Sequence record: PQ303785.1
Reading direction: 5' to 3' (one strand)
Source of the DNA: Escherichia phage LYE-01
DNA: 64,000 nt
Positions within the stretch are counted from its first letter, which is position 1; every line of letters starts with the position of its first letter. The notes beneath the pieces are model-generated. The model worked only from the letters and a program-made list of their open reading frames with translations. It was not told where the DNA came from and did no database searches. Shown here in pieces: positions 16,828-36,748 of this stretch. The translations under genes and the position numbers were made by a program.

Positions 16828-17568
16828 ATGATTAATGATTCTATGACAGTTGAAGAAATCCGTCTTCATTTGGGAATTGCATTAAAGGAAAAAGATTTCG
16901 TAGTTGATAAAACCGGTGTTAAAACTATTGAAATTATTGGTGCATCATTTGTAGCAGATGAACCTTTTATTTTTGGCGCTCTTAATGATGAATACATTCA
17001 GCGTGAACTTGAATGGTATAAGTCTCAAAGTTTGTTTGTTAAAGATATTCCAGGTGAAACACCAAAGATTTGGCAGCAGGTAGCATCTTCTAAAGGCGAA
17101 ATTAACTCGAATTATGGTTGGGCCATCTGGTCAGAAGATAACTATGCCCAGTATGATATGTGTTTAGCTGAACTTGGTCAAAATCCTGATTCTCGACGTG
17201 GTATCATGATTTATACTCGTCCATCTATGCAGTTTGACTACAATAAAGATGGTATGTCAGATTTCATGTGTACGAATACAGTACAGTACCTGATTCGTGA
17301 TAAGAAAGTCAATGCAGTAGTTAACATGCGCTCAAATGACGTGGTCTTCGGATTCCGTAATGATTATGCATGGCAAAAATACGTACTAGATAAACTAGTA
17401 TCTGATTTGAATGCAGGTGATTCAACTCGCCAGTATAAAGCAGGTTCCATTATATGGAATGTTGGAAGCCTTCATGTGTATTCCCGTCATTTTTATTTGG
17501 TTGACCATTGGTGGAAAACTGGCGAAACTCATATTGCGAAAAAAGATTATAATGGTGAGTGGAAATGA
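16828..17568 (+). CDS. 42: gp42 dCMP hydroxymethylase (246 aa)
   Basis: 246 aa; thymidylate-synthase-like sequence; synteny. Confidence 0.9.
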   Translation: MINDSMTVEEIRLHLGIALKEKDFVVDKTGVKTIEIIGASFVADEPFIFGALNDEYIQRELEWYKSQSLFVKDIPGETPKIWQQVASSKGEINSNYGWAIWSEDNYAQYDMCLAELGQNPDSRRGIMIYTRPSMQFDYNKDGMSDFMCTNTVQYLIRDKKVNAVVNMRSNDVVFGFRNDYAWQKYVLDKLVSDLNAGDSTRQYKAGSIIWNVGSLHVYSRHFYLVDHWWKTGETHIAKKDYNGEWK

Positions 17569-18407
17569 TTCAATTTGTAATTCCAAGTTATCAACGCGTA
17601 GGGGCAGTTTCTGCCCTTGATATGTTTCCGACTGATTATGAACCTCATATTGTAGTACGTGAACATGAAGAAAAAGCTTATTATGACGCTTACGGGTCTA
17701 GAGCTAAAATTATAACTATTCCTGATGATGTTAATGGAATTGCTGGTACTCGTAAAGCAATTACTGATATGTATGCAGGTCAACGAATCTGGATGATTGA
17801 TGATGATACTACTATTCGTATGAGTTCAATGCGAAAGAAAGATGATCGTCGCTGCGTAGATAAAATTAATCAGTTAACCCGTGAGCAGTTCTATGAATTG
17901 ATTCAATACGTTGAAGATGCCATGGATTGCGGGTATTATCATGGTCATGCTCGTCTACCAATTTTTAAAATTACTTCATCTTGGGGTAATTATCGTGAAA
18001 ATTCATATGGATTCACGAATACATGGTATGATTTAGGAAAACTTACAACAGAACAAATTGGGTATGGAAAAATTGATTTATGCGAAGATATGTATGCATT
18101 TCTCAATTTAATTAATCAAGGTTATCCACATTTAGCCTTGTTCAAATATCTGGTTGTATCCGGAAAAGCACAGGCTCCCGGTGGATGCAGCTCAATTCGT
18201 AGTAATTCTAAACATAATAGAGCGCTTGAGCAAATCAATAGAGAGTTTCCAGAGCAAGCTCGTTGGAAAACTTCTAATATTGAAAAACGAAAATCATTAG
18301 GTGAAGAAGACGAGCCATTAAAGGTTCTTCGCATGTGTGTTTCACGCAAAGAAAAATCAGAAGCGTTTCATAAGTTTAATGCTATTCATCCAATAGCGGT
18401 TGATTAA
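17565..18407 (+). CDS. glycosyltransferase, GT-A-like with DxD motif; candidate beta-alpha-glucosyl-HMC transferase in the T4 beta-gt position (280 aa)
   Basis: IWMIDDDT DxD motif; occupies the 42-uvsX slot but is not T4 beta-gt (351 aa, different sequence by recall); ATG overlaps gene 42 stop. Confidence 0.55.
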   Translation: MIQFVIPSYQRVGAVSALDMFPTDYEPHIVVREHEEKAYYDAYGSRAKIITIPDDVNGIAGTRKAITDMYAGQRIWMIDDDTTIRMSSMRKKDDRRCVDKINQLTREQFYELIQYVEDAMDCGYYHGHARLPIFKITSSWGNYRENSYGFTNTWYDLGKLTTEQIGYGKIDLCEDMYAFLNLINQGYPHLALFKYLVVSGKAQAPGGCSSIRSNSKHNRALEQINREFPEQARWKTSNIEKRKSLGEEDEPLKVLRMCVSRKEKSEAFHKFNAIHPIAVD

Positions 18408-18485: not shown

Positions 18486-19667
18486 ATGTCTATTGCAGAT
18501 TTAAAATCCCGTTTGATTAAAGCTTCCACTTCTAAAATGACTGCTGAACTGACTACATCTAAATTCTTTAATGAAAAGGATGTAATCCGTACAAAAATCC
18601 CAATGCTTAATATCGCTATTTCAGGTGCGATTGACGGTGGTATGCAGTCTGGTTTAACCATTTTTGCAGGTCCTTCTAAACACTTTAAATCAAATATGTC
18701 TTTGACTATGGTTGCGGCGTATTTGAACAAATATCCTGACGCGGTATGTCTATTTTATGATAGCGAATTTGGTATTACTCCAGCTTATTTGCGATCCATG
18801 GGAGTTGACCCGGAACGAGTAATTCATACACCAATCCAGTCAGTTGAACAGCTGAAAATTGATATGGTGAATCAGCTTGAAGCTATTGAGCGCGGTGAAA
18901 AGGTTATTGTATTCATTGACTCAATCGGTAATATGGCTTCTAAGAAAGAAACGGAAGATGCCTTGAATGAAAAATCTGTGGCAGATATGACTCGTGCTAA
19001 ATCACTGAAGTCATTATTCCGTATTGTTACTCCTTATTTTAGTATTAAAAACATTCCGTGTGTTGCGGTTAACCATACAATTGAAACAATTGAAATGTTT
19101 AGTAAAACCGTGATGACAGGTGGTACAGGCGTAATGTATTCGGCTGATACTGTATTCATTATCGGTAAGCGCCAGATTAAAGATGGTTCTGATCTTCAGG
19201 GGTATCAATTTGTTCTAAATGTAGAAAAATCTCGTACCGTTAAAGAAAAAAGTAAATTCTTTATTGATGTTAAATTTGACGGTGGCATCGATCCTTATTC
19301 TGGATTGTTAGATATGGCTCTTGAATTAGGATTTGTGGTAAAACCTAAAAATGGCTGGTATGCTCGTGAATTTCTTGACGAAGAAACTGGCGAGATGATT
19401 CGCGAAGAAAAATCTTGGCGTGCAAAAGATACCAATTGCACTACATTCTGGGGTCCTTTATTTAAGCATCAACCATTCCGAGATGCTATTAAACGTGCTT
19501 ATCAATTAGGTGCTATTGATAGTAATGAAATTGTTGAAGCTGAAGTTGATGAATTAATTAACTCAAAGGTTGAAAAATTTAAATCTCCAGAAAGTAAAAG
19601 TAAATCAGCAGCTGATTTAGAAACTGACCTAGATCAGTTAAGTGATATGGAAGAATTTAATGAATAA
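18486..19667 (+). CDS. uvsX: UvsX recombinase (RecA-like, 393 aa)
   Basis: Walker A GPSKHFKS; high similarity to T4 UvsX by recall. Confidence 0.9.
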   Translation: MSIADLKSRLIKASTSKMTAELTTSKFFNEKDVIRTKIPMLNIAISGAIDGGMQSGLTIFAGPSKHFKSNMSLTMVAAYLNKYPDAVCLFYDSEFGITPAYLRSMGVDPERVIHTPIQSVEQLKIDMVNQLEAIERGEKVIVFIDSIGNMASKKETEDALNEKSVADMTRAKSLKSLFRIVTPYFSIKNIPCVAVNHTIETIEMFSKTVMTGGTGVMYSADTVFIIGKRQIKDGSDLQGYQFVLNVEKSRTVKEKSKFFIDVKFDGGIDPYSGLLDMALELGFVVKPKNGWYAREFLDEETGEMIREEKSWRAKDTNCTTFWGPLFKHQPFRDAIKRAYQLGAIDSNEIVEAEVDELINSKVEKFKSPESKSKSAADLETDLDQLSDMEEFNE

Positions 19668-20007: not shown

Positions 20008-21435
20008 GTGGTAGAAATTATTCTTTCTCATCTCATATTTGATCAAGCTTATTTTTCAAAAGTTTGGCCATATATGGATTCAGAATATTTTGAAAGTGGT
20101 CCAGCTAAAAATACATTCAAATTAATTAAATCTCATGTTAATGAGTACCATAGCGTTCCATCTATTAATGCGTTAAATGTTGCGTTAGAAAATAGTTCAT
20201 TTACTGAAACAGAATATTCTGGTGTAAAAACACTTATTTCAAAACTGGCCGATTCTCCGGAAGACCATAGCTGGTTAGTAAAAGAAACAGAAAAATATGT
20301 TCAGCAAAGGGCGATGTTTAACGCTACATCTAAAATAATTGAAATTCAAACTAATGCTGAGCTTCCTCCGGAAAAACGAAATAAGAAAATGCCAGATGTA
20401 GGTGCTATTCCTGACATCATGCGCCAAGCATTATCAATTTCATTTGATAGTTACGTTGGTCATGATTGGATGGATGACTACGAAGCACGTTGGCTATCTT
20501 ATATGAATAAAGCTCGTAAGGTTCCATTTAAACTCAAAATTCTAAATAAAATTACTAAAGGCGGAGCTGAAACTGGAACACTGAACGTTTTAATGGCTGG
20601 TGTTAACGTTGGTAAGTCATTAGGTCTGTGTTCATTGGCAGCAGATTATTTACAGCTTGGACATAATGTTCTTTACATTTCCATGGAAATGGCAGAAGAA
20701 GTCTGTGCTAAACGTATTGATGCTAATATGCTTGACGTTTCTCTTGATGACATTGATGATGGGCATATTTCTTACGCTGAATATAAAGGAAAAATGGAAA
20801 AATGGCGTGAGAAATCTACTCTTGGACGTTTAATCGTTAAACAGTATCCTACTGGTGGAGCAGACGCTAATACATTTCGTTCTCTTTTGAACGAATTGAA
20901 GCTCAAGAAGAATTTTGTTCCAACAATCATTATTGTCGACTATCTGGGCATTTGTAAATCTTGCCGCATCAGAGTTTATTCGGAAAATAGTTACACAACT
21001 GTTAAAGCCATCGCAGAAGAATTGCGTGCTCTGGCTGTTGAAACTGAAACTGTTCTTTGGACTGCAGCACAGGTTGGTAAGCAAGCTTGGGATTCTTCTG
21101 ATGTTAACATGAGCGATATTGCGGAATCTGCCGGTCTTCCAGCAACAGCCGATTTTATGCTTGCGGTCATTGAAACCGAGGAGTTAGCAGCTGCTGAACA
21201 ACAACTCATTAAGCAAATCAAATCACGATATGGTGATAAGAATAAATGGAATAAGTTTTTGATGGGTGTTCAAAAAGGAAATCAGAAATGGGTAGAAATT
21301 GAACAAGATTCTACTCCAACTGAAGTGAACGAAGTAGCAGGTTCACAACAGATACAAGCTGAACAGAACCGCTATCAAAGAAACGAATCCACTCGAGCTC
21401 AGTTAGATGCTTTGGCGAATGAATTAAAATTTTAG
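20008..21435 (+). CDS. 41: gp41 replicative DNA helicase (475 aa, GTG start)
   Basis: Begins MVEIILSHLIFDQAYF; Walker A GVNVGKS; 475 aa as T4 gp41. Confidence 0.9.
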   Translation: MVEIILSHLIFDQAYFSKVWPYMDSEYFESGPAKNTFKLIKSHVNEYHSVPSINALNVALENSSFTETEYSGVKTLISKLADSPEDHSWLVKETEKYVQQRAMFNATSKIIEIQTNAELPPEKRNKKMPDVGAIPDIMRQALSISFDSYVGHDWMDDYEARWLSYMNKARKVPFKLKILNKITKGGAETGTLNVLMAGVNVGKSLGLCSLAADYLQLGHNVLYISMEMAEEVCAKRIDANMLDVSLDDIDDGHISYAEYKGKMEKWREKSTLGRLIVKQYPTGGADANTFRSLLNELKLKKNFVPTIIIVDYLGICKSCRIRVYSENSYTTVKAIAEELRALAVETETVLWTAAQVGKQAWDSSDVNMSDIAESAGLPATADFMLAVIETEELAAAEQQLIKQIKSRYGDKNKWNKFLMGVQKGNQKWVEIEQDSTPTEVNEVAGSQQIQAEQNRYQRNESTRAQLDALANELKF

Positions 21436-21464
21436 TTTACAAGCTGACAAGACTATGGTATAGT
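21435..21464 (+). promoter_or_regulatory. early promoter; -35 GTTTAC shares its G with the gene 41 TAG stop; -10 lies inside an 8-bp inverted repeat
   Basis: TAGTTTACAAGCTGACAAGACTATGGTATAGTAGTCTTGT. Confidence 0.5.
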
Positions 21465-21493
21465 AGTCTTGTTGGTTAAATGAGGAGATTGTT

Positions 21494-21676
21494 ATGGAAT
21501 TGGTAAAGGTAGTTTTTATGGGGTGGTTTAAGAATGAAAGCATGTTTACTAAAGAAATCACAATGATGAAAGATGACGTTCAATGGGCTACTACTCAATA
21601 TGCTGAAGTTAATAAAGCATTAGTTAAAGCTTTCATTGATGACAAGAAAGTATGCGAAGTGGATTGCCGAGGATAA
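21494..21676 (+). CDS. dmd: Dmd, discriminator of mRNA degradation (60 aa)
   Basis: 60 aa beginning MELVKVVFMGWFKNESMF, recognised as T4 Dmd (gene 61.5). Confidence 0.75.
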   Translation: MELVKVVFMGWFKNESMFTKEITMMKDDVQWATTQYAEVNKALVKAFIDDKKVCEVDCRG

Positions 21677-21677
21677 T

Positions 21678-21920
21678 ATGCACATTGTTTTATTTAAACC
21701 TACTCCGTATAATGTCAGGAAAAATACTCAATTCAAGGCACTTATTGCGGATACGTGGGAATTGGTGTTAGATATTCCAGCAGAAGAAAGCCCTCCATTT
21801 GGTCGAGTGGAATTTATTAAGTTTGCTGTGCGCCCTACGAAGCGACAGATTCGCCAATGCAAAAGATACTTTCGTAAAATCGTCAAGTTAGAGAAACAGT
21901 TATTGATGCTAGTAAAATAG
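21678..21920 (+). CDS. hypothetical protein, 61.4-like position (80 aa from ATG 21678)
   Basis: GAGGA SD; starts 2 nt after dmd stop; basic C-terminus. Confidence 0.4.
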   Translation: MHIVLFKPTPYNVRKNTQFKALIADTWELVLDIPAEESPPFGRVEFIKFAVRPTKRQIRQCKRYFRKIVKLEKQLLMLVK

Positions 21921-21922
21921 TA

Positions 21923-21952
21923 GTTTACAAGCTGATAGAGTTGTGTTATAGT
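21923..21952 (+). promoter_or_regulatory. early promoter (TAGTAGTTTAC, 18 nt spacer, TATAGT) with -10 embedded in a 9-bp inverted repeat
   Basis: AGCTGATAG...CTATCAGCT flank GTTATAGTA; paralogous to the element at 21435. Confidence 0.5.
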
Positions 21953-21983
21953 AATTCTATCAGCTAATCGCGGAGAAAAGAAA

Positions 21984-22238
21984 ATGATGCTAGTTAATAG
22001 AGAATATCAGTTTAAATCAGAAGAAGATTTGGAAAAATTCGCGAGTGGTTGTGAACTGAATAGACGCACAGCTAAAGTCATAGGATTAAAACCCTTTACA
22101 GTTCTAGATTGTGAAGTTTCTAAATTCCGCAGAGGGTGTTCTATTAGCGGTCATGCTCTGGTTGATGGAAACACATTTTTCTTTGTTTTTAGCGTCAGAG
22201 AACTTTTATTGATTAACGAACTTGAGGAAATAAAATAG
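21984..22238 (+). CDS. hypothetical protein (84 aa)
   Basis: ORF with its own promoter cassette and GGAG SD. Confidence 0.4.
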   Translation: MMLVNREYQFKSEEDLEKFASGCELNRRTAKVIGLKPFTVLDCEVSKFRRGCSISGHALVDGNTFFFVFSVRELLLINELEEIK

Positions 22239-22267
22239 TTTACTTTTGTTGGAAATTGAGATACTAT
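22238..22267 (+). promoter_or_regulatory. early promoter (TAGTTTAC junction) upstream of sp
   Basis: GTTTAC at 22238-22243 sharing G with the upstream TAG stop; TACTATTAT -10 region; GAGGAG SD. Confidence 0.45.
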
Positions 22268-22296
22268 TATAAACATAAACTACTGAGGAGATTATC

Positions 22297-22590
22297 ATGA
22301 AAAAATTTGTTTTTGCTGCAATTTTTGCTTTAGCTTCTTGCGCTGCTCAGCCTGCTATGGCAGGTTATGATAAAGATTTGTGCGAATGGTCTATGACTGC
22401 AGATCAGACTGAGGTTGAAACTCAGATTGAAGCAGATATTATGAATATCGTTGAGCGTGATCGCCCTGAAATGAAAGCTGAAGTACAAAAACAGCTTAAG
22501 TCTGGTGGTGTAATGCAGTATAATTACGTTCTGTATTGTGATAAAAACTTCAATAATAAAAATATCATCGCTGAAGTGGTAGGTGAATAA
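22297..22590 (+). CDS. sp: Spackle-like periplasmic protein (97 aa, signal peptide)
   Basis: 97 aa; N-terminal signal peptide MKKFVFAAIFALASCAAQPAMA; position between 41 and 61. Confidence 0.6.
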   Translation: MKKFVFAAIFALASCAAQPAMAGYDKDLCEWSMTADQTEVETQIEADIMNIVERDRPEMKAEVQKQLKSGGVMQYNYVLYCDKNFNNKNIIAEVVGE

Positions 22591-23216
22591 TGCTTTATCA
22601 AATGCACAAGTGCAAAGACACGTACAAATATAAAGGTGCCCAGTGTTATATCATTAATCGTGAAAACGCAGGTCCAGGTCATTCGCATCAATCGCGGTTT
22701 GTATTCGTTAAAAACAACGAAATTATAGCAGTTGCTAATTACGTGCTTGTGACTAGTGATGTTAATCCGGTGCCTTTTACATATTATAATCTAATGGACT
22801 TGGCGTACGATTATAATTGGTTTAATCATGACACTTTGGCTCATATCGAAGGCGTAGGATTTGACATCTCTTACTCTAGTTACTCGTTGTGTCCTATGAG
22901 CCGAGCTCATAAAGAGCCTGAATATTTTTCATTTCGGCGGCGCGTAGACTTTAAACGCAGCACAGAGTATATTGGTGGAATCTTTGTTAAAGATAATCGA
23001 ATTACTCGCATTATTTATCCTTTGGGTTGTGGTCAAAAAGATATTGAGGTTGATTTAGACTTTACTGAAAACATCATTAATCATATTGCTTCTGTGTATT
23101 TTGATATTGATCACAAAATTGTAATATGCGGATATGAATTACCATCGGAAAAACAGTTTAAAGTAAAAGTTTCTATTGATGACCAAATTTTTAATGCTTT
23201 TATGAATAGAGGTTAA
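22590..23216 (+). CDS. hypothetical protein, 61.2-like position (208 aa)
   Basis: ATG overlaps sp stop (TAATG). Confidence 0.45.
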   Translation: MLYQMHKCKDTYKYKGAQCYIINRENAGPGHSHQSRFVFVKNNEIIAVANYVLVTSDVNPVPFTYYNLMDLAYDYNWFNHDTLAHIEGVGFDISYSSYSLCPMSRAHKEPEYFSFRRRVDFKRSTEYIGGIFVKDNRITRIIYPLGCGQKDIEVDLDFTENIINHIASVYFDIDHKIVICGYELPSEKQFKVKVSIDDQIFNAFMNRG

Positions 23217-23217
23217 T

Positions 23218-23382
23218 ATGAAAACATATAAAGAATTTATCAAAGAAGATATGGTAGCTGGAGATTCAGGTGGTAATCCTGAAAATATCTCTACTGGAAC
23301 AACGTCAGGCGCTGTAGTAAATAAAGGTCCTGAACAGATTCCTAAAAAGAAAAAAGAGGAATCTAAAGAAAAAGAAGAGTAA
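23218..23382 (+). CDS. hypothetical small protein (54 aa)
   Basis: ORF filling the gap before gene 61; Lys/Glu-rich tail. Confidence 0.3.
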   Translation: MKTYKEFIKEDMVAGDSGGNPENISTGTTSGAVVNKGPEQIPKKKKEESKEKEE

Positions 23383-23384
23383 AA

Positions 23385-24413
23385 ATGTCATCAATACCTT
23401 GGATTGATAATGAGTTTGCATACCGTGCGCTAGCTCATTTACCTAAATTCACACAAGTAAATAATAGTTCAACTTTTAAATTACGGTTTAGATGCCCTGT
23501 TTGTGGAGATTCAAAAACCGACCAAAATAAAGCCCGTGGATGGTATTATGGCGATAATAATGAAGGAAATATTCATTGTTATAATTGCAACTATCATGCA
23601 CCAATCGGAATATATTTAAAGGAGTTTGAACCCGATTTATATCGTGAGTATATCTTTGAAATAAGAAAAGAAAAAGGTAAAAGTCGTCCAGTAGAAAAAC
23701 CTAAAGAACTTCCTAAACAACCTGAGAAGAAAATAATTAAATCTCTTCCGTCATGTATTAGATTAGATAAACTGGCGGAAGACCATCCAATTATAAAATA
23801 CGTAAAAGCTCGCTGTATTCCAAAGGACAAATGGAAATATCTTTGGTTTACAACCGAATGGCCTAAATTAGTTAATAGCATAGTACCAGGAACATACAAA
23901 AAGGAAATACCTGAGCCTCGTCTTGTTATTCCAATTTATAATGCTAATGGAAAAGCTGAGTCTTTTCAAGGACGTGCATTAAAGAAAGATGCTCCTCAAA
24001 AATATATCACCATCAAAGCTTATCCTGAGGCAACAAAAATCTATGGTGTTGAACGGATTAAAGACGGTGATGTATATGTTCTAGAAGGACCTATAGATTC
24101 GCTTTTTATTGAAAATGGTATAGCTATTACGGGCGGTCAATTAGACCTAGAAATTGTTCCATTTAAAGATAGACGTGTATGGGTTTTAGATAATGAACCT
24201 CGTCACCCTGACACTATTAAACGAATGACTAAATTAGTTGATGCAGGAGAAAGGGTTATGTTTTGGGATAAATCTCCCTGGAAATCAAAAGATGTTAATG
24301 ATATGATTAGAAAGGAAGGTGCAACCCCTGAACAAATTATGGAATATATGAAAAATAATATTGCCCAAGGGCTGATGGCTAAAATGCGGCTATCTAAATA
24401 TGCTAAGATTTAA
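23385..24413 (+). CDS. 61: gp61 DNA primase (342 aa)
   Basis: Begins MSSIPWIDNEFAYRALAHLPKF; Zn-ribbon CPVCGDS...CYNC; 342 aa as T4 gp61. Confidence 0.9.
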   Translation: MSSIPWIDNEFAYRALAHLPKFTQVNNSSTFKLRFRCPVCGDSKTDQNKARGWYYGDNNEGNIHCYNCNYHAPIGIYLKEFEPDLYREYIFEIRKEKGKSRPVEKPKELPKQPEKKIIKSLPSCIRLDKLAEDHPIIKYVKARCIPKDKWKYLWFTTEWPKLVNSIVPGTYKKEIPEPRLVIPIYNANGKAESFQGRALKKDAPQKYITIKAYPEATKIYGVERIKDGDVYVLEGPIDSLFIENGIAITGGQLDLEIVPFKDRRVWVLDNEPRHPDTIKRMTKLVDAGERVMFWDKSPWKSKDVNDMIRKEGATPEQIMEYMKNNIAQGLMAKMRLSKYAKI

Positions 24414-24610
24414 ATTAACCCAACCAAAGCAAATGCTAAATCTACGAATGTATCAAGAGTAATTACTGGAATACTAACGCCATGAGCAATAGCAACTGGC
24501 GATAAAACAAAATTCCAAAGTAAAATTCCTATCATAGCAGAAATAGTAAAAGCTATACGTTTTTTATTACCTTTGATGGCATTAACAAGTGCCATTAATT
24601 TTTGTACCAT
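24410..24610 (-). CDS. hypothetical small two-TM membrane protein (66 aa), antisense to the early block
   Basis: ATG preceded by AGGAGG at 7 nt spacing; two hydrophobic helices; stop overlaps gene 61 stop tail-to-tail. Confidence 0.45.
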   Translation of the reverse strand: MVQKLMALVNAIKGNKKRIAFTISAMIGILLWNFVLSPVAIAHGVSIPVITLDTFVDLAFALVGLI

Positions 24611-24659: not shown

Positions 24660-24689
24660 GTTTACTTTCTCAGCTTGCTGTGGTATTAT
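24660..24689 (+). promoter_or_regulatory. T4-type early promoter (GTTTAC, 18 nt spacer, TG-extended TATTAT) driving ORF 24715
   Basis: TTTGTTTACTTTCTCAGCTTGCTGTGGTATTAT then CTGAGGATAAT SD leader. Confidence 0.55.
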
Positions 24690-24714: not shown

Positions 24715-26054
<1,340 letters not shown>

Positions 26055-30384: not shown

Positions 30385-30440
30385 TGGAAGGACTTAGATT
30401 CATTATACCATGAAAGTTTTAAAGCATTTTTCATAAAGTT

Positions 30441-30470
30441 GTTTACAAGCTGAAGTAAAAATGATATAGT
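30441..30470 (+). promoter_or_regulatory. T4-type early promoter upstream of srd
   Basis: AAAGTTGTTTAC, 18 nt spacer, TGATATAGT. Confidence 0.5.
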
Positions 30471-36113: not shown

Positions 36114-36329
36114 ATGAAACGTAAAATTGTTCAGAACTGCACTAATGACGAATTTGAAGATGTATTATTCGATCCAGATTTGGTAGTAGTTCAAAAGGAA
36201 CACACCATTAAGTTTACCCACTTGACTTCGGTTTATGTGTATGAAAAGGTTGGTGATAAACAACCAATTTACGGTGTATTTCGTGAAATTACTGAAGATG
36301 GCACAACTTACTGGAAGGAAATTTATTAA
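36114..36329 (+). CDS. hypothetical protein (71 aa)
   Basis: ORF with GAGGAAA SD. Confidence 0.35.
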
Positions 36330-36748
36330 TGGCTATTAAATTTGAAGTTAATAAATGGTATCAATTTAAAAATAAACAAGCTCAAGAAAATTTTATTAAA
36401 GACCATACTGATAACGGAATCTATGCACGACGTTTAGGTATAGAACCTTTTAAAATTTTAGATGTTGACTATTACGGGCGTCCTACTAAAATTGTGACAT
36501 CTACTGGCACAATTGGATATTCAACATGTGGTACAGTCATTGACGAAAACTTTATCTGGCTCTCTACTAACGAAGCTGAGTTCTTTGATGAAGTTGAAAA
36601 TCCATATCAGGCATCTGAAGAGCAAGGGCAGGAAGAGCAAGAACAAATAGAAGATTTCACAGAATTCCCTGTCATGAAAGTTACTATTGAAAATAATGAA
36701 CAGGCATGGTCCTTGTATCAGATGTTGAAAGCACACTTTAAGGAATAA
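36329..36748 (+). CDS. hypothetical protein with acidic Q/E-rich linker (139 aa)
   Basis: ORF overlapping previous stop. Confidence 0.35.

What the first reader, a model, noticed from the sequence alone, without database searches (positions are those of the whole stretch)
21494..23382. Anti-defence islet between helicase gene 41 and primase gene 61, with one extra promoter-bearing ORF
This interval carries dmd (antitoxin against RnlA/LsoA-type RNases), a 61.4-position ORF, spackle and a 208-aa 61.2-position ORF; relatives of these are implicated in countering host toxin-antitoxin defences. Relative to the T4 layout I remember, there appears to be an additional 84-aa ORF (21984-22238) with its own promoter cassette.
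Basis: partly seen in the sequence, partly recalled or inferred. Interest (0 to 1): 0.5.

Follow-up and report, generated by a model that had tools for sequence, protein, structure and literature searches.

The report
Known anti-toxin island plus GoF-like gene
This stretch of a T4-like phage genome is the already-published cluster of genes that disarm bacterial toxin-antitoxin defences, and its one gene beyond phage T4 is a small, conserved, uncharacterised relative of the T4 GoF protein that about one in seven sequenced relatives also carry.

Summary
The window is a Tequatrovirus. Positions 21494-23382 hold dmd, tifA (61.4), an extra 84-aa ORF, spackle, adfA (61.2) and 61.1, between helicase 41 and primase 61. 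Alignment with T4 shows a ~315-bp unit (early promoter, hairpin, Shine-Dalgarno, ORF) that T4 lacks. Its right edge lies exactly at the -35 GTTTAC of the spackle promoter.

The ORF is a real gene (dN/dS 0.05-0.17). It is a stand-alone copy of the N-terminal small beta-barrel of GoF (GoF/MotB.1/Frd.2 'LSm-like' family). The true goF lies at 36329-36745.

It is not new to databases: about 70 of ~500 Tequatrovirus records carry it (RB3, RB5-10, Shfl2, PP01), usually as 'hypothetical' or 'goF'. Diverged copies sit in the same 41-61 island in Gapriverviruses and in metagenomic T4-like contigs.

The 'anti-TA island' idea was published by Srikant et al. (2022). The function of the extra protein is untested. 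I rate a host-specific counter-defence or takeover binder as most likely (about 0.4) and a GoF-like RNA role second. Overall this is an ordinary, known polymorphism that offers a reasonable candidate gene. Interest is low to moderate.

The parts
21435..21477 (+). Early promoter of the dmd-tifA operon (-35 TTTACA 21436-21441, -10 TATAGT 21459-21464), overlapped by a 14-15 bp hairpin
   Evidence: Promoter scan. T4-early pattern. Fold -20.2 kcal/mol, z -4.4. Nearly identical to T4. Srikant 2022 places the tifA promoter upstream of dmd.
21494..21676 (+). dmd (61.5), antitoxin-like inhibitor of RnlA/LsoA
   Evidence: Pfam Dmd E 1.6e-46 and phrog_2102. One silent difference from T4.
21678..21920 (+). 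tifA (61.4), ToxN inhibitor. It is 80 aa here against 85 aa in T4. Residues 1-74 match T4 except one conservative Lys/Arg difference at residue 55, and the C-terminal tail differs (LLMLVK against FVTCDYAEILK).
   Evidence: Pfam DUF7279 E 2e-20. Alignment A6 keeps the PT motif and the basic helix region; K55, R56 and R59 are read from the window sequence. Function from PMC9391042 and PMC10853763.
21921..22237 (+). The inserted unit as a whole (promoter + hairpin + SD + ORF84). It is bounded on both sides by AAAATAG...GTTTAC repeats and is absent from T4.
   Evidence: Alignments with T4, GEP001 and Ozark. 429 of 502 records have the T4-type junction and about 70 have the cassette.
21923..21965 (+). 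Early promoter of the extra ORF (-35 TTTACA 21924-21929, -10 TATAGT 21947-21952), with a 14-bp hairpin at 21930-21965 spanning the -10
   Evidence: Fold -18.0 kcal/mol, z -3.9. The hairpin is kept in 4 cassettes: 96% of cells paired, and 6 of 14 pairs show changes on both sides. 70% identical over 64 nt to the dmd promoter region.
21984..22238 (+). Extra 84-aa ORF: a stand-alone GoF-N-terminal-domain-like small beta-barrel protein (SD GGAG at 21972-21975)
   Evidence: phrog_2980 E 3.2e-20. BLASTP to T4 GoF residues 7-47: 37% identity, E 2e-8. hhalign probability 96%. dN/dS 0.05-0.17. AF2 pLDDT 88. Fold matches.
22238..22267 (+). Early promoter of sp (GTTTAC...TACTAT). Its -35 is the right-hand junction of the cassette, and the ORF84 stop codon TAG overlaps it.
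22297..22590 (+). sp (61.3), spackle periplasmic protein
   Evidence: Pfam T4_Spackle E 4.8e-45.
22590..23216 (+). adfA (61.2), anti-DarT factor A
   Evidence: Pfam AdfA E 8.7e-134 over the full length. Annotated adfA in phage P8.
23218..23382 (+). 61.1, a 54-aa Lys/Glu-rich ORF of unknown function
   Evidence: phrog_1823 E 7e-34. Same position as T4 61.1.

Best explanation
SHOWN. The interval is the T-even early-gene 'anti-TA island' (dmd, tifA, sp, adfA, 61.1), read rightward from host-sigma70 early promoters. In this phage one extra promoter-plus-gene unit of about 315 bp sits between tifA and sp. It encodes an 84-aa protein under purifying selection. The protein is a single-domain paralogue of the N-terminal SH3/LSm-like small beta-barrel of GoF, without GoF's acidic linker and C-terminal domain. 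The unit is bounded by repeats of the early-promoter -35 region (AAAATAG/GTTTAC). The same ORF, with the same promoter and hairpin, recurs at different positions of the 41-61 island in other T4-like lineages.

INFERRED. The unit was gained or lost by recombination between early-promoter/hairpin repeats, in the PeSL manner. The protein is made within the first minutes of infection. Like its neighbours Dmd, TifA and AdfA, it acts as a small stoichiometric binder of a host factor. It is most likely a host-strain-specific counter-defence or takeover factor, with its beta-barrel as the binding surface.

Confidence. I put the identity and architecture at 0.9 or higher. I put the counter-defence function at about 0.4. 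The confidence figure given for this explanation refers to the functional claim.
For: Extra relative to T4, with the junction at GTTTAC.

GEP001 keeps the T4-type tifA tail and has the cassette plus a second cassette flanked by GTTTACTTTTGTT repeats. This shows a modular, promoter-bounded structure.

The promoter matches the T4-early consensus, which is strongly enriched and strand-specific in the window.

Coding is supported by dN/dS 0.047-0.165 with saturated synonymous sites and a conserved length of 82-84 aa.

The GoF relationship is supported.

Island association holds in four arrangements. In the window the order is dmd-tifA-ORF-sp. In SP18 the order is 41-ORF-x-x-dmd-sp. In the metagenomic loci L008 and L009 the order is 41-253aa-ORF-(50aa)-tifA-sp.

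Three neighbours are experimentally proven anti-toxin factors, and Srikant et al. predicted that further ones lie in this region.
Against: There is no functional data for this ORF or any close homologue, and no paper on it was found.

Guilt by association is weak in T4 early regions, which are mosaics of unrelated small genes. Spackle, in the same island, is not a counter-defence gene.

Wild-type GoF and MotB.1 have no known phenotype. Deletions grow normally (PMC12152347).

85% of Tequatroviruses do without the gene.

The protein is near-neutral (pI 5.8), so charge gives no hint of a nucleic-acid target.

The hairpin overlaps the promoter rather than lying just upstream of it as in described PeSLs.
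Confidence: 0.4

Rival explanations
1. The 84-aa protein works like (mutant) GoF. It is an LSm-like RNA-binding protein that modulates the stability or 3'-end formation of phage early or middle mRNAs, for example transcripts of the neighbouring 41/dmd-tifA region. It would be a gene-expression tuner rather than a counter-defence factor.
For: It is homologous to the GoF N-terminal domain across its whole length. GoF(D25Y) stabilises an RNA carrying the gene 41 5' region, and the family was proposed to be LSm-like (PMC12152347). The RefSeq/PHROG label is 'goF mRNA metabolism modulator'. TifA next door is itself an RNA-binding protein.
Confidence: 0.3
2. The cassette is a neutral or selfish passenger: a decaying partial duplicate of goF spread by promoter-mediated recombination, with no benefit to the phage.
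For: It is absent from about 85% of Tequatroviruses, including T4, which grow well. It is bounded by recombination-prone promoter repeats. It lacks GoF's C-terminal half.
Against: Purifying selection is strong (dN/dS 0.05-0.17) across lineages whose synonymous sites are saturated. The length, start, SD and own promoter are conserved. A complete barrel is predicted with pLDDT 88. It shares only 28% identity with GoF, so it is an old, separately maintained paralogue and not a recent fragment.
Confidence: 0.1
3. The ORF is a chance open frame, and the functional element is only the extra promoter/hairpin, for example to boost sp-adfA transcription or to terminate or stabilise dmd-tifA mRNA.
For: The hairpin is conserved with compensatory changes. 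The promoter duplicate is 70% identical to P-dmd.
Against: The protein is conserved at 55-81% identity while synonymous sites are saturated. It has a PHROG family and a confident fold. sp keeps its own promoter downstream.
Confidence: 0.02

Closest known systems
T4 'anti-TA island' dmd (61.5) - tifA (61.4) - adfA (61.2), between genes 41 and 61 (Srikant, Guegler & Laub 2022, PMC9391042; Guegler et al. 2023, PMC10853763)
   Same: Same position, gene order, early promoter and proteins. Dmd is identical to T4. TifA matches T4 over residues 1-74 apart from one conservative Lys/Arg difference at residue 55, and keeps the PT motif and basic helix. AdfA matches the Pfam model over its full length.
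   Different: One extra promoter + ORF unit lies between tifA and sp. The TifA C-terminal tail is 5 aa shorter and different. The extra promoter creates a 15-nt perfect direct repeat on both sides of dmd-tifA.
T4 GoF (ComC-alpha) and the GoF/MotB.1/Frd.2 'LSm-like fold' family of Tevenvirinae early proteins (Kim et al. 2025, PMC12152347)
   Same: It aligns with GoF residues 1 to about 91, sharing VN..YQFK, N, A, G..PF..LD and other motifs. It has the same predicted five-stranded bent barrel with helices after beta1. FeoA-type SH3-like domains appear among its closest solved folds, as reported for GoF. It is an early gene and is restricted to T4-like phages.
   Different: Only 28% identity. It lacks the acidic linker and C-terminal domain. 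It lies in the 41-61 island rather than the 39-motB region, where the window has its true goF at 36329-36745. It has family-specific invariant C23, C43, C52 and H57 that GoF lacks. A profile of the ORF84 family alone does not reach GoF at library-wide significance.
PeSL (promoter-early stem-loop) cassettes that mediate modular shuffling in T4-type genomes (Arbiol et al. 2010, PMC2839356; Comeau et al. 2014, PMC4122927)
   Same: It combines an AT-rich lead, TTTACW-N17-TAYWAT, a stem-loop, an SD and an ATG. It sits exactly at an indel between close relatives. Neighbouring cassettes are bounded by repeats of the -35 region.
   Different: The stem-loop overlaps the spacer and -10 instead of lying just upstream of the promoter. 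No mini-circle or recombination event was observed here.
Small SH3-like/Tudor/KOW beta-barrels (EF-P domain I, FeoA, PcrA/UvrD Tudor, CarD, MIB repeat, VapX antitoxin)
   Different: 5-18% identity. There is no evidence of common ancestry or shared function.

Membership tests
T-even anti-TA island (dmd-tifA-adfA) | Located between helicase gene 41 and primase gene 61, same strand | tested here: met
   Gene 41 at 20008-21435 and gene 61 at 23385-24413 flank it. Collinear with T4.
T-even anti-TA island (dmd-tifA-adfA) | Encodes Dmd, TifA and AdfA homologues | tested here: met
   Pfam Dmd 1.6e-46, DUF7279 2e-20, AdfA 8.7e-134. The TifA PT motif and the basic helix region are conserved in alignment A6; K55/R56/R59 are read from the window sequence.
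T-even anti-TA island (dmd-tifA-adfA) | Proteins actually neutralise RnlA/LsoA, ToxN and DarT | not testable with these tools
   Needs plaque or toxicity-rescue assays. Near-identity to the tested T4 proteins makes it likely for Dmd and TifA.
GoF/MotB.1/Frd.2 LSm-like fold family | Sequence homology to the GoF N-terminal domain | tested here: met
   BLASTP 37% over 41 aa, E 2e-8. hhalign probability 96%, E 2.6e-9. phrog_2980 'goF' 3.2e-20. Full-length alignment at 28% identity. Caveat: GoF was not retrieved at E<=1e-3 in the 1.8-billion-protein profile search.
GoF/MotB.1/Frd.2 LSm-like fold family | Bent five-stranded antiparallel beta-sheet/barrel in the N-terminal domain | tested here: met
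   AF2 pLDDT 88.3, strands 6-10, 38-48, 51-60, 63-70, 77-82. BFVD matches to T4 MotB.1 (E 1.3e-4, TM 0.66) and VR7 GoF (E 5.7e-3, TM 0.68). The MSA contained GoF sequences, so the model is not independent of them.
GoF/MotB.1/Frd.2 LSm-like fold family | C-terminal domain joined by a flexible linker | tested here: not met
   The ORF ends right after beta5. The whole ORF84 family is 82-84 aa. It is a barrel-only member.
GoF/MotB.1/Frd.2 LSm-like fold family | Early gene of Tevenvirinae | tested here: met
   Own T4-early-type promoter. All homologues found are in T4-like phages or contigs.
Bona fide Sm/Hfq proteins | Sm fold with N-terminal helix, closest structural neighbours Sm/Hfq, ring-forming, RNA-binding | tested here: not met
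   [not shown]
PeSL promoter-early stem-loop cassette | sigma70-like early promoter TTTACW-N17-TAYWAT followed by SD and start codon | tested here: met
   TTTACA-17-TATAGT at 21924-21952, GGAG at 21972-21975, ATG at 21984. Consensus from PMC4122927.
PeSL promoter-early stem-loop cassette | Stem-loop just upstream of the promoter (terminator-like) | tested here: inconclusive
   A strong conserved hairpin exists at 21930-21965, but it overlaps the spacer and -10 and has no U-tract. The SP18 homologue does have a canonical upstream terminator + promoter.
PeSL promoter-early stem-loop cassette | Lies at indel boundaries between closely related phages | tested here: met
   Cassette edges coincide with -35 regions in the window/T4/GEP001/Ozark comparison.
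PeSL promoter-early stem-loop cassette | Excision/integration through recombination between PeSLs (mini-circles) | not testable with these tools
   Needs PCR or long-read detection of circles or deletions.

The most novel reading that the evidence does not exclude
The 84-aa barrel-only GoF paralogue is a fourth, so far unrecognised inhibitor in the anti-TA island. It would be a small SH3-like protein that directly binds and neutralises a host toxin or abortive-infection effector, as the SH3-like antitoxin VapX does for VapD. It would explain host-range differences between Tequatroviruses that carry it (RB3, RB5-10, Shfl2, PP01, G28 and this phage) and those that do not (T4 and the other records with a T4-type junction). 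That would also give the first biological function to the GoF/MotB.1/Frd.2 family.
Probability: 0.3. Interest if true: 0.6.

Novelty: new member of a known kind. Interest (0 to 1): 0.25.

Why it matters
The island is a proven source of anti-toxin factors, and its remaining genes were flagged in print as candidates. This gene is a natural presence/absence polymorphism, in about 14% of sequenced Tequatroviruses, inside that island. That makes it a cheap target: add it to T4, or delete it from an RB3-type phage, and plate on strain and defence-system panels.

A phenotype would also give the first wild-type function to the enigmatic GoF/MotB.1/Frd.2 protein family.

The promoter that comes with the cassette places a 15-nt perfect direct repeat on each side of dmd-tifA. 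This may make amplification or loss of that operon, the route T4 uses to escape toxIN, easier in these phages.

If no phenotype is found, this is just one more accessory early ORF in a T4-type hyperplastic region.

Tried and rejected
1. A profile of the ORF84 family searched against 1.84 billion representatives found only one further true relative, the SP18 type. The other hits were multi-repeat proteins: a C2H2 zinc-finger protein matched through 'KPFKCLQCEKSF' (spurious), and a protein with five tandem repeats of unknown origin, noted in passing. GoF was not reached, so the GoF link rests on pairwise, profile-profile, PHROG and fold evidence.

2. The first AF2 run with five near-identical sequences gave pLDDT 62 and was not used. 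The model used comes from an MSA that includes GoF sequences.

3. The afdb50 fold library was unavailable.

4. Pfam and NCBIfam have no family for ORF84, 61.1 or GoF itself. The PDB has no sequence relative.

5. I asked whether the altered tifA tail (TTGATGCTAGTAAAATAG) is a remnant of a duplicated ORF84 start (ATGATGCTAGTTAATAG), a 22-nt match at 77% (D3). I rejected this as not above the many chance repeats of the same quality in that list.

6. I looked for T4's 36-bp tifA tail elsewhere in the window. It is absent.

7. I asked whether the invariant C23/C43/C52/H57 form a zinc site. Strand register suggests they are not all adjacent, so the question is left open.

8. My first promoter pattern had the wrong spacer and returned nothing. 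It was corrected.
Full report
WHAT IS THERE

The window is a Tequatrovirus (T4-like) genome read on the strand opposite to the T4 map. The 2-kb interval is 98-99% identical to phages vB_EcoM-G28, G2540-3, CJY920 and P8, and matches 511 phage records in all.

ORF listing and family scans give this order:
- uvsX, 18486-19667.
- Gene 40.
- Helicase 41, 20008-21435.
- dmd, 21494-21676 (Pfam Dmd 1.6e-46).
- tifA/61.4, 21678-21920 (DUF7279 2e-20).
- An 84-aa ORF, 21984-22238.
- sp, 22297-22590 (T4_Spackle 4.8e-45).
- adfA/61.2, 22590-23216 (AdfA 8.7e-134).
- 61.1, 23218-23382.
- Primase 61, 23385-24413.

The T4 record has the same order without the 84-aa ORF.

THE EXTRA GENE RELATIVE TO T4

In a direct alignment the two genomes are almost identical up to ...GAGAAACAGTT, near the end of tifA, and again from the GTTTAC of the sp promoter onward. 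Between those points T4 has 36 bp and the window has about 340 bp.

A four-way alignment sharpens the boundaries. Phage GEP001 keeps the T4-type tifA tail and then has the same promoter + ORF. So the mobile unit runs from the (TA)GTTTACAAGC -35 region at about 21921 to the A at 22237. It is flanked by AAAATAG...GTTTAC on both sides.

GEP001 also carries a second cassette, a 59-aa ORF, bracketed by GTTTACTTTTGTT repeats. The site is therefore a stack of promoter-bounded modules.

The shorter tifA tail in the window (80 aa against 85 aa) is a separate polymorphism.

In the phage collection the site is essentially biallelic. 429 of 502 records have the T4-type junction and about 70 carry the cassette at 95% identity or more. 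These include RB3, RB5, RB6, RB7, RB9, RB10, Shfl2, ime09 and PP01.

PROMOTER AND HAIRPIN

TTTACA-17-TATAGT at 21924-21952 and the twin at 21436-21464 upstream of dmd are the two best sigma-70-type sites in the interval. The T4-early pattern GTTTACW-N16-18-TAYWRT occurs 19 times in the window, all on the + strand, against 0.29 expected. Three of these sit before dmd, the extra ORF and sp.

The 64 nt around the two promoters are 70% identical. A perfect 15-mer, TAGTTTACAAGCTGA, occurs at 21433 and at 21921, flanking dmd-tifA.

Both promoters are overlapped by a 14-15 bp hairpin (-20.2 and -18.0 kcal/mol, z about -4). Across four cassettes (window P-orf84, window P-dmd and two metagenomic P-orf84 copies) 96% of cells stay paired. 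Six of 14 pairs change on both sides, G-U pairs are tolerated, and slid controls fall to 25-59%.

That pattern suggests a structure used at the RNA level in read-through transcripts, as a 3'-end or stability element. This is an inference. There is no U-tract, and no intrinsic terminator is predicted.

The layout resembles the PeSL promoter/stem-loop cassettes described for T4-type genomes. The reported T4/PST consensus is TTTACW-N17-TAYWAT, and those elements lie at indel borders (PMC4122927). In that description, however, the stem-loop lies just upstream of the promoter rather than over it.

THE PROTEIN

The ORF is a real gene. Against homologues at 55-81% amino-acid identity, synonymous sites are saturated while dN is 0.09-0.39. 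dN/dS is 0.047-0.165 where it can be computed.

The ORF hits phrog_2980, labelled 'goF mRNA metabolism modulator' (3.2e-20). It has no Pfam or NCBIfam family.

BLASTP against T4 GoF gives 37% identity over residues 4-44 against 7-47 (E 2e-8). Profile-profile comparison against the window's own GoF gives 96% probability. Multiple alignments extend the match over the whole GoF N-terminal domain at 28% identity. The genuine goF of this phage is at 36329-36745, so the ORF is a paralogue and not a displaced goF.

The family is small. There were five 90%-identity clusters in 5.8 billion proteins. Only one additional representative turned up in a filter-free profile search of 1.84 billion proteins, which did not reach GoF.

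With an MSA that includes GoF sequences, AlphaFold2 gives pLDDT 88.3 and pTM 0.74. The order is beta1, two helices, then beta2 to beta5.

- eIF5A.
- Dda SH3 domain.
- MIB repeat.
- PcrA/UvrD Tudor domain.
- CarD.

No Hfq/Sm chain appears in the top 60.

Foldseek against viral models finds the SP18-type orthologue (E 1e-10), T4 MotB.1 (E 1.3e-4), a 141-aa PP01 protein labelled 'Transcriptional regulator', whose length equals that of GoF (E 9.1e-4), and VR7 GoF (E 5.7e-3).

This reproduces for the ORF what Kim et al. [quoted passage not shown] The ORF is thus a barrel-only member of that family, lacking the linker and C-terminal domain.

The residue equivalent to GoF D25, the site of the gain-of-function D25Y mutation, is Gly22 and varies within the family. 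The protein is near-neutral (pI 5.8) against pI 10.3 for the RNA-binding TifA.

CONTEXT IN OTHER PHAGES

In Gaprivervirus SP18 the 57%-identical homologue lies directly after gene 41, upstream of two ORFs, dmd and sp.

In two metagenomic T4-like contigs the 78-81% homologues lie after a 253-aa ORF and before tifA and sp. No Dmd-family gene was called among the genes of those loci. They keep the same promoter + hairpin.

So the gene moves, together with its promoter, but in every case examined it stays inside the 41-61 island next to tifA or dmd.

COMPARISON WITH WHAT IS KNOWN

Dmd inhibits RnlA, TifA (gp61.4) inhibits ToxN, and AdfA (gp61.2) counters DarT. Srikant et al. 2022 already proposed that this region is an 'anti-TA island' whose other genes are attractive anti-toxin candidates. 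TifA uses its basic C-terminal helix to bind RNA and ToxN, and that helix is intact here. Spackle is a superinfection-exclusion protein, not a counter-defence factor (my own knowledge).

I found no paper on the extra ORF. GenBank and RefSeq call it hypothetical, 'goF' or 'ComC-alpha'.

MECHANISM AND VERDICT

Shown:
- An early-promoter-driven, purifying-selected, barrel-only GoF paralogue.
- It is carried on a promoter-bounded module.
- It is a minority allele in Tequatroviruses.
- It resides in the island in three lineages.

Inferred:
- Gain or loss by recombination between promoter repeats.
- Expression in the first minutes of infection.
- Action as a small stoichiometric binder.

I rate a host-specific counter-defence or takeover role as most likely (about 0.4). 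A GoF-like RNA-stability role comes next (about 0.3). A neutral passenger is about 0.1, and a non-gene is about 0.02.

Interest is low to moderate. Its value is as a ready-made candidate for a simple experiment.

Noticed in passing
window 24715-25275 (+), with an early-type promoter at 24660-24689: A 186-aa ORF lies immediately upstream of the dam methylase gene (25275-26054) and overlaps its start. It has a weak, sub-threshold Pfam hit to DpnII (GATC) restriction endonuclease (E 0.0025, 17.6 bits against a cut-off of 23). It matches phrog_8706 (unknown function) and has no PDB sequence relative. It is absent from T4, which has a 310-bp gap there, and present in G28, P8 and RB3-type phages. 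It could be a nuclease-like partner of Dam.
   Followed up: partly
window 24410-24610 (-): A 66-aa ORF (phrog_2024, E 1.9e-30) lies on the opposite strand to all surrounding genes, between primase 61 and the 186-aa ORF. It looks hydrophobic and membrane-like. It is annotated as hypothetical in G28 and RB3.
   Followed up: no
window 21433-21447 and 21921-21935 (third near-copy at 30439-30453): A perfect 15-nt direct repeat, TAGTTTACAAGCTGA, brackets the dmd-tifA operon. It exists only because the cassette brought a P-dmd-like promoter. T4 escapes toxIN by amplifying dmd-tifA through 6-10 bp microhomologies (PMC9391042). These longer repeats could therefore make amplification or deletion of the operon more frequent in cassette-bearing phages.
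   Followed up: partly
window 21897-21920: The TifA C-terminal tail differs from T4 (LLMLVK, 80 aa, against FVTCDYAEILK, 85 aa), while residues 1-74 match T4 apart from one conservative Lys/Arg difference at residue 55. GEP001 has the cassette with the T4-type tail, so the tail variant is independent of the cassette. RB69 TifA, which lacks the T4 C-terminal extension, is reported as the more potent ToxN inhibitor.
   Followed up: partly
window 22262-22275: The stretch just after the -10 of the sp promoter is an indel hot spot among close relatives: TACTATTATAAAC here, TACTATATAAAC in T4, TACTATAAAC in GEP001, and shorter still in Ozark.
   Followed up: no
ORF84 residues C23, C43, C52, H57 (window 22050-22154): Three cysteines and one histidine are invariant across all ORF84-family members, including the 55%-identical SP18 type, but are absent from GoF. 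They could be a metal site or a family-specific functional cluster.
   Followed up: no
[not shown]
   Followed up: no
window 17559-18407 (+): Upstream of uvsX the phage has a TAGT-family glycosyltransferase (Pfam TAGT, E 1.2e-9). Near-identical phages annotate it as beta-glucosyl-HMC-alpha-glucosyltransferase. T4 has segA and beta-gt at this position. The DNA sugar modification is therefore probably of a different type from T4's (T2/T6-like, from my own knowledge).
   Followed up: partly
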